Shown one piece after another: positions 46,118 through 46,237 of a stretch of DNA of 64,000 bases; position 1 is the stretch's first letter; every line of letters starts with the position of its first letter. Below the pieces are notes generated by a model. That model did no database searches. It saw only the letters and a program-made list of their open reading frames with translations, and was not told the origin of the DNA. The DNA comes from a virus. Both the position numbers and the translations under genes were made by a program. The stretch lies in the IMG/VR virus record IMGVR_UViG_3300045988_081534; one strand, given 5' to 3'.

Positions 46118-46237
46118 CGGCGGGGAGTGCAGGACTCGAACCTGCGACATCGTGCACCCAAAGCAAGTTAAAGATTGCTGTTACGGTCTTTAACAAGACC
46201 AAACTATAACGCGCTCTACCAACTGAGCTAACTCCCC
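46118..46237 (-). ncRNA. tRNA-like RNA with canonical acceptor, D- and T-arms but a roughly 67-nt structured insertion replacing the anticodon arm (about 120 nt, no CCA)
   Basis: ggggagt-ta-gctcagttggtagagc...gcaggttcgagtcctgc-actcccc. The insert contains hairpins ggtc-ttgttaaa-gacc and agcaa-tctttaac-ttgct. Neither has a 7-nt anticodon loop. Confidence 0.5.

What the first reader, a model, noticed from the sequence alone, without database searches (positions are those of the whole stretch)
46118..46237. tRNA-like RNA with intact acceptor, D- and T-arms but the anticodon arm replaced by a 67-nt structured insert
The sequence folds with a perfect 7-bp acceptor stem (ggggagt/actcccc), a canonical D-arm (gctcagttggtagagc) and a canonical T-arm (gcagg-ttcgagt-cctgc).

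Between D and T arms are about 67 nt containing at least two hairpins. Neither has a 7-nt anticodon loop, and there is no encoded CCA.

It is too short for a group I intron, and bacteria lack BHB splicing. The architecture is reminiscent of bacterial Y RNA (YrlA) tRNA mimics that bind Ro60/Rsr. A TROVE protein is encoded in the same window. It is therefore a candidate ligand of the vault/Ro-like module, or a regulatory tRNA mimic.
Basis: seen in the sequence. Interest (0 to 1): 0.7.

Follow-up and report, generated by a model that had tools for sequence, protein, structure and literature searches.

The report
tRNA-shaped partner RNA for phage Ro60
A phage tRNA-Pro-like gene carries a 44-base hairpin-plus-ACAGCAA module in its anticodon stem, and that module belongs to an apparently undescribed family of small RNAs that sit next to Ro60-like genes in gut Clostridia and their phages, so it is most likely a tRNA-shaped "Y RNA" and not an ordinary tRNA.

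Summary
The feature is real. It lies on the minus strand at 46121-46237 and scores 49.8 bits with the Rfam tRNA model. The acceptor, D and T arms are canonical and CCA is not encoded.

The region between the D and T arms contains a canonical anticodon hairpin, UGC-UUUGGGU-GCA. Removing 44 nt after position 28 gives a perfect tRNA-Pro(UGG) anticodon arm.

The 44-nt insert is a 6-7 bp hairpin followed by GUA-ACAGCAA. It belongs to a large covarying family, with 101 model hits in 100 IMG/VR loci.

The same helix+ACAGCAA motif closes seven other modules in this tRNA array, including a circularly permuted tRNA-Ile-like gene.

The motif tracks one protein, the DUF2828 protein at 35478-36998, whose predicted fold matches Ro60. 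ACAGCAA is enriched 5-16 fold on the coding strand upstream of its homologues, in 80 phage loci and 80 bacterial loci.

Close orthologues keep the stems and the module but change the anticodon (UGG to AUG). More distant relatives lose the anticodon hairpin.

Best reading: a tRNA-shaped Y-RNA analogue that works like YrlA but is not a member of that family. The main rival is a spliced intron. This is a new variant of a known kind.

The parts
46121..46237 (-). Whole tRNA-like gene (117 nt): tRNA-Pro(UGG)-like body plus a 44-nt module
   Evidence: Rfam tRNA 49.8 bits. Sequence read.
46231..46237 (-). Acceptor stem 5' strand GGGGAGU. It pairs with ACUCCCC at 46122-46128. The discriminator G is at 46121 and is followed by CCG, not CCA.
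   Evidence: Unchanged in the orthologues.
46213..46228 (-). D arm GCUC-AGUUGGUA-GAGC
46210..46211 (-). C27-G28, the outer two pairs of the anticodon stem. They pair with C42-G43 at 46151-46152.
   Evidence: Rfam alignment. These outer pairs covary in family members: CG/CG, GG/CC, GU/AC.
46166..46209 (-). 44-nt inserted module: UUAUAGUUU, hairpin, GUA, ACAGCAA, UCUUUAACU
   Evidence: Removing it gives CGUGC-UUUGGGU-GCACG. Covariance model R1 scores 39.2 bits, E 8e-8.
46185..46200 (-). Helix 1: GGUCUU (46195-46200), loop GUUA (46191-46194), AAGACC (46185-46190)
   Evidence: In the family all 7 pairs show changes on both sides, and 93.7% of cells are paired against 64% in shuffles.
46175..46181 (-). 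Conserved single-stranded ACAGCAA. With helix 1 it is the presumed protein-binding site.
   Evidence: CAGCAA is invariant in alignment A1. Family consensus is aAAGrCnCnuA-CAGCAA. Enriched upstream of Ro60-like genes.
46153..46165 (-). Inner anticodon hairpin UGC-UUUGGGU-GCA (anticodon UGG, U33, G37)
   Evidence: The loop changes to UUAUGGU or UUAUGGG in orthologues.
46129..46150 (-). Variable loop AUGUC (46146-46150) and T arm GCAGG-UUCGAGU-CCUGC (46129-46145)
35478..36998 (-). Ro60-like protein gene (DUF2828+DUF7788, PHROG 850 'RNA-binding protein'), the presumed protein partner
   Evidence: Pfam. PHROGs. AF2 model pLDDT 80.5. Foldseek best hits are Ro60 1yvr (E 2.6e-7, TM 0.55), phage phiLo Ro60 and Rsr. 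Co-occurrence with the motif.
46566..46691 (-). Sibling module: a circularly permuted tRNA-Ile(GAU)-like gene closed by AAGACGCAU/AUGCGUCUU plus ACAGCAA
   Evidence: ARAGORN calls tRNA-Ile after re-permutation, in 21 of 21 junction variants. Coordinates.
55445..55560 (-). Sibling module: UAAGACGC-AUA-CAGCAA ... GCGUCUUG, enclosing tRNA-Leu(CAA) 55463-55536
55070..55145 (-). Sibling Y-RNA-like module (terminal stem UAAGGCAGA/UCUGCCUUG, CA-CAGCAA, 50-nt AU-rich loop), just 5' of tRNA-Asn and just 3' of a sigma-70-like promoter
38387..38461 (-). Sibling Y-RNA-like module (AAGACGC-UUU-CAGCAA ... GCGUCUU), 5' of the suppressor tRNA(CUA)
37799..37897 (-). Sibling Y-RNA-like module (UAAGGCUC-AUA-CAGCAA ... 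GAGCCUUG)

Best explanation
The gene encodes a tRNA-shaped non-coding RNA that serves as the RNA partner of the phage's Ro60-like protein. In function it is a Y-RNA analogue that works like bacterial YrlA.

Proposed mechanism:
- It is transcribed with the minus-strand tRNA array and folds into a normal tRNA L-shape. Acceptor, D and T arms are intact.
- An extra arm leaves the 5' strand of the anticodon stem after position 28. It consists of a capped 6-7 bp helix (GGUCUU/AAGACC) followed by single-stranded GUA-ACAGCAA-U.
- The Ro60-like ring encoded 9 kb downstream on the same strand binds this helix+ACAGCAA element.
- The tRNA-shaped part is the second module. It brings the ribonucleoprotein to factors that recognise tRNA.
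- Candidate factors are the phage's tRNA-repair set (Thg1-like enzyme, RlaP-like nucleotidyltransferase, kinase and phosphatase, and RNA ligases in relatives) or host exonucleases.
- The likely context is the conflict over tRNA cleavage by host toxins.

Shown here: the structure, the family, the covariation, and the strand-specific genomic linkage of the motif to Ro60-like genes.

Inferred: physical binding, and what the tRNA module recruits.
For: 1. The insert is a member of a structured family.
- Helix 1 has 7 of 7 pairs with changes on both sides. 93.7% of cells are paired against 64.4±3.0% in shuffles (0 of 500 reach the observed value). Slid controls give 28-46%.
- Model R1 finds 101 hits at E<=0.01 in 100 IMG/VR loci.

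2. Of all window proteins, only the DUF2828 protein is shared with many motif-bearing loci. It occurs in 45 loci. The contingency of motif against protein is 42 both, 25 motif only, 3 protein only and 49 neither.

3. The reverse test also holds.
- In 80 IMG/VR loci chosen by the protein (57-100% identity), ACAGCAA occurs 3.79 times per 10 kb on the coding strand upstream. The three control compartments give 0.51-0.70.
- 67 of 72 loci have a helix-supported copy.
- In 64 bacterial or MAG loci at under 50% identity the figures are 8.35 against 0.52-1.48, and 57 of 57 loci have a copy.

4. The protein's predicted fold matches Ro60 or Rsr over its full length, with Foldseek probability 1.0.

5. 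Most family members have the classical Y-RNA layout: a 5'-3' terminal stem, a conserved motif on the 5' strand side and a large loop. They lie just upstream of the protein gene, as published for Ro60 and Y RNAs (PMC4201824, PMC12135203). Some carry tRNA-like domains (L307; L123).

6. Orthologues at the syntenic site keep all stems and GUAACAGCAAU, but the anticodon changes from UGG to AUG and the discriminator from G to A. L222 and L246 keep acceptor, D arm, T arm and module but have no anticodon hairpin. So the module and the tRNA shape are conserved, not decoding.

7. An intact tRNA-Pro(UGG) with bacterial identity marks (C1-G72, A73, CCA) exists at 47458-47534.

8. Insert-less copies: 0. 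Insert-bearing copies: 14 metagenome contigs.
Against: - No binding data exist. The link to the protein rests on genomic association and on analogy with Ro60 and Y RNA.
- In about 25 distinct tRNA-embedded copies, removing the module restores a perfect 5-bp stem and a 7-nt loop with U33 and a purine at 37, with many different anticodons. That pattern looks like selection for a usable anticodon arm, or else recent insertion.
- Several permuted copies also keep complete anticodon arms.
- The motif ACAGCAA differs from the Ro60-binding GNCGAA(N)G.
- The element lies 9 kb from the protein gene, not directly beside it.
- The Ro60-like fold match has only moderate TM scores (0.5-0.55).
Confidence: 0.6

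Rival explanations
1. It is an intron-containing tRNA-Pro(UGG) gene. The 44-nt module is an intervening sequence cut out after position 28, and the exons are ligated to give a decoding tRNA. The helix+ACAGCAA motif would act as the splice signal. The same signal at transcript ends would let permuted tRNA genes mature through a circular intermediate, as the bulge-helix-bulge motif does in archaea and some algae. The Ro60-like protein could hold the ends for phage RNA ligases.
For: - Removal of exactly 44 nt gives CGUGC-UUUGGGU-GCACG.
- Nearly all tRNA-embedded family members give perfect anticodon arms with U33 and R37, at a fixed site after position 28 or 29.
- The motif flanks permuted tRNA genes whose junction lies at the same site (L004, L120) or in the variable region (window Ile, L111).
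- RNA ligase genes (Rnl1-type and PF09414) lie near the Ro60-like gene in relatives.
- 'Enigmatic' phage tRNA introns have been reported in Lak phages (PMC6784885).
Against: - No endonuclease candidate was found, and no known ribozyme or intron family matches.
- No bulge-helix-bulge geometry can be drawn.
- Close orthologues carry AUG, an anticodon not used for decoding in bacteria. Relatives L222, L246 and L123 lack an anticodon hairpin but keep everything else.
- Most motif copies close AU-rich loops that contain no tRNA.
- The phage has an intact tRNA-Pro(UGG).
- No insert-less copy exists in the metagenome collection.
- G73 and the missing CCA do not fit a bacterial tRNA-Pro.
Confidence: 0.2
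2. It is a tRNA gene disabled by insertion of a mobile or recombining Y-RNA-like module. The module may still bind the protein, but the tRNA part is a decaying passenger with no function of its own.
For: - The exact element is confined to one phage lineage: 3 IMG/VR contigs and 14 metagenome contigs in three allele types.
- An intact tRNA-Pro(UGG) exists elsewhere in the window.
- Changes cluster in the anticodon loop, the linkers and the discriminator.
- CCA is degraded to CCG.
Against: - All four tRNA stems, the D and T loops and the module are identical between lineages whose neighbouring ATPase is only 80% identical.
- The same architecture (tRNA shape plus module, with or without the anticodon hairpin) recurs in many unrelated phage lineages. 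This argues for selection on the tRNA shape.
Confidence: 0.12
3. It is a decoy. The RNA would be a tRNA look-alike with a variable anticodon loop, held on the Ro60-like ring to soak up or sense host anticodon nucleases. This is a special case of the best explanation.
For: - The anticodon differs between near-identical alleles while the loop length and U33 are kept: UGG, AUG.
- Near-identical relatives elsewhere switch UCU to GUU and GCU to ACU.
- The genomic setting is a tRNA-repair gene set.
Against: This is purely inferential. Some relatives lack the anticodon hairpin altogether.
Confidence: 0.08

Closest known systems
YrlA, the tRNA-like bacterial and phage Y RNAs bound by Rsr/Ro60 (Chen et al. 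2014, PMC4201824)
   Same: - A small RNA encoded near a Ro60-type (TROVE plus vWA) gene.
- Two modules: a helix with an adjacent conserved motif for the protein, and a domain that mimics the tRNA D arm, T arm and acceptor stem.
- The protein-binding helix leaves the tRNA shape at the anticodon-stem position.
- The genomic setting is RNA repair. rtcB lies directly upstream of the homologous protein gene in Yeguia and Merdimmobilis.
   Different: - The protein belongs to the DUF2828/DUF7788 branch, which is Ro60-like by fold only.
- The motif is ACAGCAA after an AAAGRC helix, not GNCGAA(N)G.
- In this copy the topology is inverted: the acceptor stem is open and the protein helix is capped. Sibling copies in the window have the YrlA-like permuted topology.
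- A canonical anticodon hairpin is retained.
- There is no Rfam YrlA or Y RNA hit.
Y-RNA-like RNAs Yrl1 and Yrl2 of Thermus phage phiLo, bound by phage Ro60 (PMC12135203; PDB 9KOP, 9L5Y)
   Same: A phage-encoded Ro60 homologue with its partner RNAs encoded upstream of the gene. Those RNAs have a 5'-3' stem and a bulge with a short conserved motif. The window's sibling modules have this layout.
   Different: The phiLo RNAs use a CGAA motif and are not embedded in tRNAs. The element studied here sits inside a complete tRNA body.
Intron-containing and circularly permuted tRNA genes processed at bulge-helix-bulge motifs (archaea, Cyanidioschyzon; own knowledge) and the 'enigmatic' Lak-phage tRNA introns (PMC6784885)
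   Same: One structural motif occurs both inside tRNA genes at a non-canonical anticodon-stem site and at the ends of permuted tRNA genes. Removing the insert restores a canonical anticodon arm.
   Different: There is no bulge-helix-bulge geometry and no splicing endonuclease gene. The host is bacterial. The motif is asymmetric and is linked to a Ro60-like protein. The Lak introns are 79-114 nt, lie at position 37/38 and lack CAGCAA.

Membership tests
tRNA (Rfam RF00005) | Cloverleaf scoring above the family's gathering threshold | tested here: met
   49.8 bits against 29, full model 1-71, with 55 nt treated as an insertion inside the anticodon arm.
tRNA (Rfam RF00005) | Contiguous 5-bp anticodon stem with a 7-nt loop; called by a standard tRNA finder | tested here: not met
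   ARAGORN does not call it. The stem is interrupted after position 28 by 44 nt and is restored only in silico.
tRNA (functional tRNA-Pro) | Anticodon and identity elements conserved among orthologues | tested here: not met
   The anticodon changes from UGG to AUG and the discriminator from G to A in orthologues. G1-C72 and G73 contrast with C1-G72, A73 and CCA in the window's intact tRNA-Pro.
YrlA / bacterial Y RNA | Encoded next to a Ro60-type gene | tested here: met
   The Ro60-like gene lies at 35478-36998 on the same strand, downstream of the array. The motif family is enriched 5-16 fold upstream of homologous genes.
YrlA / bacterial Y RNA | Ro60-binding module with the GNCGAA(N)G motif on the 5' strand of a terminal 5'-3' stem (PMC4201824) | tested here: not met
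   The motif is ACAGCAA, 3' of a capped hairpin.
YrlA / bacterial Y RNA | tRNA-like domain with D and T arms and an acceptor stem-loop | tested here: inconclusive
   [quoted passage not shown] The sibling at 46566-46691 has the closed form.
YrlA / bacterial Y RNA | Match to the Rfam covariance models for Y RNA families | tested here: not met
   No such hit at E<=10 in 46050-46320, at E<=1 in 36-57 kb, or in a bacterial relative.
YrlA / bacterial Y RNA | Physical binding to the Ro60 protein | not testable with these tools
   Needs EMSA, RIP or a structure.
Group I intron in a tRNA gene | Intron of about 200 nt or more with a P1-P9 core, usually in the anticodon loop | tested here: not met
   The insert is 44 nt, lies in the stem after position 28, and gives no Rfam intron hit.
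Bulge-helix-bulge tRNA intron | Two 3-nt bulges on opposite strands separated by a 4-bp helix at the splice sites | tested here: not met
   Read from the sequence. The 3' boundary is separated from the outer stem by the 13-nt anticodon hairpin, so no such geometry can be drawn.
Known small self-cleaving ribozymes (twister, pistol, hatchet, hammerhead, HDV-like/theta) | Match to the family model or consensus | tested here: not met
   No hit in the element. The only ribozyme-like hit in the array is a twister-P1-like site elsewhere. Theta ribozymes lie 3' of tRNAs (PMC10879173).

The most novel reading that the evidence does not exclude
The helix+ACAGCAA element is not only a protein-binding site. 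It would also be the recognition signal of a cut-and-ligate RNA processing system in Clostridia phages, involving the Ro60-like protein and phage RNA-repair enzymes. This system would remove the 44-nt insert and mature circularly permuted tRNA genes. If so, it is a bacterial-virus counterpart of bulge-helix-bulge splicing, with a different motif and different proteins.
Probability: 0.15. Interest if true: 0.92.

Novelty: new variant of a known kind. Interest (0 to 1): 0.72.

Why it matters
Ro60 and Y RNA particles are known from animals, some bacteria and a few phages, and the role of the tRNA-like part of bacterial Y RNAs is still open.

What this adds:
- An apparently undescribed class of partner RNAs (AAAGRC helix plus ACAGCAA). 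No Rfam family and no paper in the searched library covers it.
- The class is tied to the DUF2828 branch of Ro60-like proteins, a family of at least 8000 proteins in gut Clostridia and their large phages.
- These RNAs come in three interconvertible topologies: a plain terminal-stem form, a permuted tRNA, and an otherwise complete tRNA with the module inside.
- The last form, the one studied here, is the closest thing yet to a true tRNA that carries a Ro60 handle.

This gives simple testable constructs for asking what the tRNA module recruits. It also explains why standard tRNA finders miss or mislabel genes in phage tRNA arrays. If the splice-signal reading were right, it would add tRNA splicing and permuted tRNA genes to phage biology.

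Tried and rejected
- **Group I intron, bulge-helix-bulge intron and known ribozymes.** There are no Rfam hits and the size or geometry is wrong.
- **Theta (HDV-like) ribozyme.** I read PMC10879173. Those ribozymes lie 3' of tRNAs and start with G1, so the design differs.
- **Phage promoter (N4-type hairpin) or integron attC-like DNA site.** Rejected because helix 1 can be formed by segments more than 100 nt apart in sibling copies. The motif also lies downstream of ordinary sigma-70-like promoters.
- **A second helix between the two ends of the insert.** It is present in some members (L114 8 bp, L023 5 bp, here 4-5 bp) but is not general, so it is not claimed.
- **Pairing of CAGCAA with the 3' exon or with D or T loops.** Not consistent across members.
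- **Missing tRNA-Tyr.** Rejected, because a cryptic tRNA-Tyr-like gene lies at 45847-45930 and the anticodon here is UGG.
- **Closest annotated phages.** None were found in INPHARED.
- **Literature.** Six searches for short phage tRNA introns, permuted phage tRNAs and DUF2828 found no description of this motif.
- **Sequence-level PDB search of the protein.** It found nothing. Only the fold comparison did.
- **Insert-less allele or spliced cDNA in metagenome assemblies.** None found.

Full report
**1. What is there**

The feature lies on the minus strand at 46121-46237, inside an array of 31 tRNA genes and a tmRNA that all point the same way. The Rfam tRNA model matches it end to end at 49.8 bits (gathering score 29), treating 55 nt inside the anticodon arm as an insertion. 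ARAGORN does not call it.

Reading the RNA:
- Acceptor stem GGGGAGU/ACUCCCC.
- U8-A9, then the D arm GCUC-AGUUGGUA-GAGC, then G26.
- 61 nt, then the variable loop AUGUC.
- T arm GCAGG-UUCGAGU-CCUGC, then discriminator G followed by CCG instead of CCA.

The predicted fold is more stable than shuffled sequences, z -2.65.

**2.

I enumerated every way of deleting 44 nt from the 61-nt stretch. Cutting after C27-G28 (or after U29, because the boundary is ambiguous by one base) leaves CGUGC-UUUGGGU-GCACG. That is a perfect 5-bp stem and a 7-nt loop with U33, anticodon UGG and G37.

The anticodon hairpin is therefore present (46153-46165) and is interrupted by a 44-nt module (46166-46209). The module reads UUAUAGUUU, hairpin GGUCUU-GUUA-AAGACC, GUA, ACAGCAA, UCUUUAACU.

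The window also has an ordinary tRNA-Pro(UGG) at 47458-47534 with the bacterial identity marks C1-G72, A73 and CCA.

**3. The module is a family**

A pattern scan of IMG/VR for tRNA genes with this D arm and T loop and an over-long middle returned 119 loci. A large subset carries the same design:
- A 7-13 nt AU-rich stretch.
- A 6-8 bp hairpin.
- 2-4 nt ending in A.
- An invariant CAGCAA.
- 5-11 nt, U-rich.

In these, removal of the insert after position 28 or 29 restores a perfect anticodon arm with U33 and a purine at 37. The anticodons are many: GCU, ACU, UCC, UUU, GUU, GAU, CCU, UAC, UCU, UGG.

The design also occurs in tRNA genes with other D arms, and once in the anticodon loop.

On 18 instances the hairpin shows changes on both sides at all 7 pairs. 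93.7% of cells are paired against 64.4±3.0% in shuffles, with 0 of 500 shuffles reaching the observed value. Slid controls give 28-46%.

A covariance model of the module scores the window copy at 39.2 bits (E 8e-8). It is the only strong hairpin-type hit in the window. The model finds 101 hits at E<=0.01 in 100 loci.

**4. The same motif in other topologies in the window**

The core AAGACN-NNN-CAGCAA recurs in the spacers of the array. There the partner strand NGUCUU lies 40-120 nt downstream, so the helix is a terminal 5'-3' stem. The copies are at:
- 55560-55445, which encloses tRNA-Leu(CAA).
- 55145-55070.
- 51764-51702.
- 47412-47268.
- 46691-46566.
- 38461-38387.
- 37897-37799.

Several sit just downstream of sigma-70-like promoters and just upstream of a tRNA.

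The copy at 46691-46566 is a circularly permuted tRNA-Ile(GAU)-like gene. Its order is stem strand, ACAGCAA, a hairpin, T arm, acceptor 3' strand, a 5-nt loop, acceptor 5' strand, D arm, anticodon arm, stem strand. After re-permutation ARAGORN calls tRNA-Ile in 21 of 21 junction variants.

Further permuted tRNA-like genes closed by the motif occur in unrelated contigs:
- L004 and L120, with the junction at 29/30.
- L022.
- L111, with the junction in the variable region.

**5. Link to a Ro60-like protein**

A tblastn of all window ORFs against the 119 loci singled out one protein, the DUF2828+DUF7788 protein at 35478-36998. It is present in 45 loci. The contingency of motif against protein is 42 both, 25 motif only, 3 protein only and 49 neither. 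The gene usually lies within 1 kb of the motif-bearing RNAs.

It matches PHROG 850, 'RNA-binding protein'. An AlphaFold model (pLDDT 80.5) matches Ro60 over its full length:
- 1yvr, E 2.6e-7, TM 0.55.
- The Ro60 of Thermus phage phiLo.
- Deinococcus Rsr.

The reverse test holds too.
- In 80 IMG/VR loci chosen by the protein (57-100% identity), ACAGCAA occurs 3.79 times per 10 kb on the coding strand upstream. The other three compartments give 0.51-0.70. 67 of 72 loci have a helix-supported copy.
- In 64 bacterial or MAG loci at under 50% identity (Oscillospiraceae, Lachnospiraceae, and isolates such as Faecalimonas, Moryella and Yeguia), the figures are 8.35 against 0.52-1.48. All 57 loci with enough upstream sequence have a copy.

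The family consensus is aAAGrCnCnuA-CAGCAA, and the window insert (AAAGACCGUAA-CAGCAA) fits it.

In two isolates the upstream gene carries RtcB signature sequences by eye (HGAGR, EAPMAYK in the read-out). This was not checked with a profile search.

The neighbours in phages are an MVP-like protein, an RlaP-like nucleotidyltransferase, a metallophosphatase, Thg1 and RNA ligases. This is the published setting of Ro60 and Y RNAs: RNAs encoded next to the gene, a terminal stem with a short conserved motif, often a tRNA-like domain, and RNA-repair neighbours (PMC4201824, PMC12135203, PMC7824862).

Rfam has no family for these RNAs. In a bacterial example it sees only the embedded tRNA-like domain.

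**6. Spliced tRNA or Y-RNA analogue?**

Orthologues of the window element sit at the same place (after tRNA-Gln CUG, before tRNA-Leu UAA) in phages whose neighbouring ATPase is 99% and 80% identical.

What is identical in the alignment:
- All tRNA stems.
- Helix 1.
- GUAACAGCAAU.

What differs:
- The D loop.
- The hairpin loop.
- The two linkers (indels).
- The discriminator (G to A).
- Two adjacent anticodon bases, UGG to AUG.

AUG is not an anticodon used for decoding in bacteria (own knowledge).

Fourteen metagenome contigs carry the element in three allele types, with one further change in the anticodon loop. None carries an insert-less form.

More distant relatives of the same design (L222, L246) keep acceptor, D arm, T arm and module but have no anticodon hairpin. 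L123 has a permuted copy without an anticodon arm at the position of the window's permuted tRNA-Ile.

So what is conserved is the tRNA shape and the module, not decoding. This favours a tRNA-shaped partner RNA of the Ro60-like protein.

The near-universal restoration of canonical anticodon arms and the permuted genes remain the best arguments for the rival, a splice signal. I cannot exclude it, because no expression data are available.

**7. Comparison and verdict**

The element works like YrlA but fails the membership tests for that family on motif, topology and covariance model. It is a new variant of a known kind.

The TROVE-ligand idea is now backed by comparative evidence. The structural description was partly wrong, and binding is unproven.

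Noticed in passing
window 46566-46691 (-): A circularly permuted tRNA-Ile(GAU)-like gene. The T arm and acceptor 3' strand come before the acceptor 5' strand, D arm and anticodon arm. It is closed by AAGACGCAU/AUGCGUCUU plus ACAGCAA, and no standard tool finds it. I found no report of permuted tRNA-like genes in phages in the searched library.
   Followed up: yes
window 55445-55560 (-): tRNA-Leu(CAA) at 55463-55536 is 74 nt with no long variable arm, which is odd for a Leu tRNA. 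It is nested inside a motif-bearing stem, with CAGCAA 7 nt upstream of its 5' end.
   Followed up: partly
window 52581-52638 (-): A twister-P1-like ribozyme hit (51.7 bits, E 4e-9, below the gathering score of 67.2) lies immediately 5' of tRNA-Ser(GCU) 52483-52575. It may be a 5'-leader-cleaving ribozyme.
   Followed up: no
window 45847-45930 (-): A cryptic tRNA-Tyr(GUA)-like gene with an anticodon loop CUGUAAA, a long variable arm and encoded CCA. ARAGORN and the tRNA model miss it, and only a weak tRNA-Sec model hit appears (33 bits).
   Followed up: partly
window 32625-35066 (-) and 30043-31585 (-): A major-vault-protein-like gene lies directly downstream of the Ro60-like gene, followed by an RlaP-like nucleotidyltransferase and a metallophosphatase. 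This block is conserved in 36-42 of 75 related phage loci. A vault-like protein beside a TROVE-fold protein and small RNAs recalls eukaryotic vault composition.
   Followed up: partly
window 19148-21323 (-): A cluster of an AAA_33 kinase, a Thg1-like 3'-5' polymerase and a metallophosphatase. This looks like a tRNA end-repair set.
   Followed up: no
window 38301-38376 (-) and late genes 39829-43443: A suppressor tRNA(CUA), together with in-frame TAG codons concentrated in structural genes. The phage recodes TAG in part of its genome, so table-11 ORF lists break these genes.
   Followed up: partly
window 50015-50253, 50331-50556, 50633-50901, 52099-52482, 53049-53361 (-): Long (220-380 nt), relatively GC-rich spacers without ORFs lie between tRNA genes. 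They have no Rfam hit and no ACAGCAA motif, and their nature is unexplained.
   Followed up: no
L279, L286 (Yeguia hominis, Merdimmobilis hominis), upstream of the Ro60-like gene: In these bacterial isolates the gene directly upstream carries RtcB signature sequences by eye. This parallels the Salmonella rsr-yrlBA-rtcBA operon. It was not checked with a profile search.
   Followed up: partly
L003 6627-6744 and about 30 near-identical loci: An insert-bearing class I tRNA with anticodon GCU (ACU in L048), A1-U72, and a G-1:C73 extra pair like tRNA-His. It has no long variable arm, so its amino-acid identity is unclear.
   Followed up: no
L044, L051, L008, L030/L007/L021 group (IMG/VR): Other phage tRNA genes with different 20-45 nt inserts that lack CAGCAA. 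Examples are a hairpin in the anticodon loop, an insert after position 38, and a conserved 'CCCUCA...AAGGGCC...' type. No Ro60-like gene was found in most of these loci (L030 has one).
   Followed up: no
L307 3892-3954 (Moryella indoligenes): A Y-RNA-like module whose loop holds an un-permuted tRNA-like domain with a 4-bp acceptor stem and a 5-nt 'anticodon' loop. It lies directly upstream of the bacterial Ro60-like gene.
   Followed up: partly
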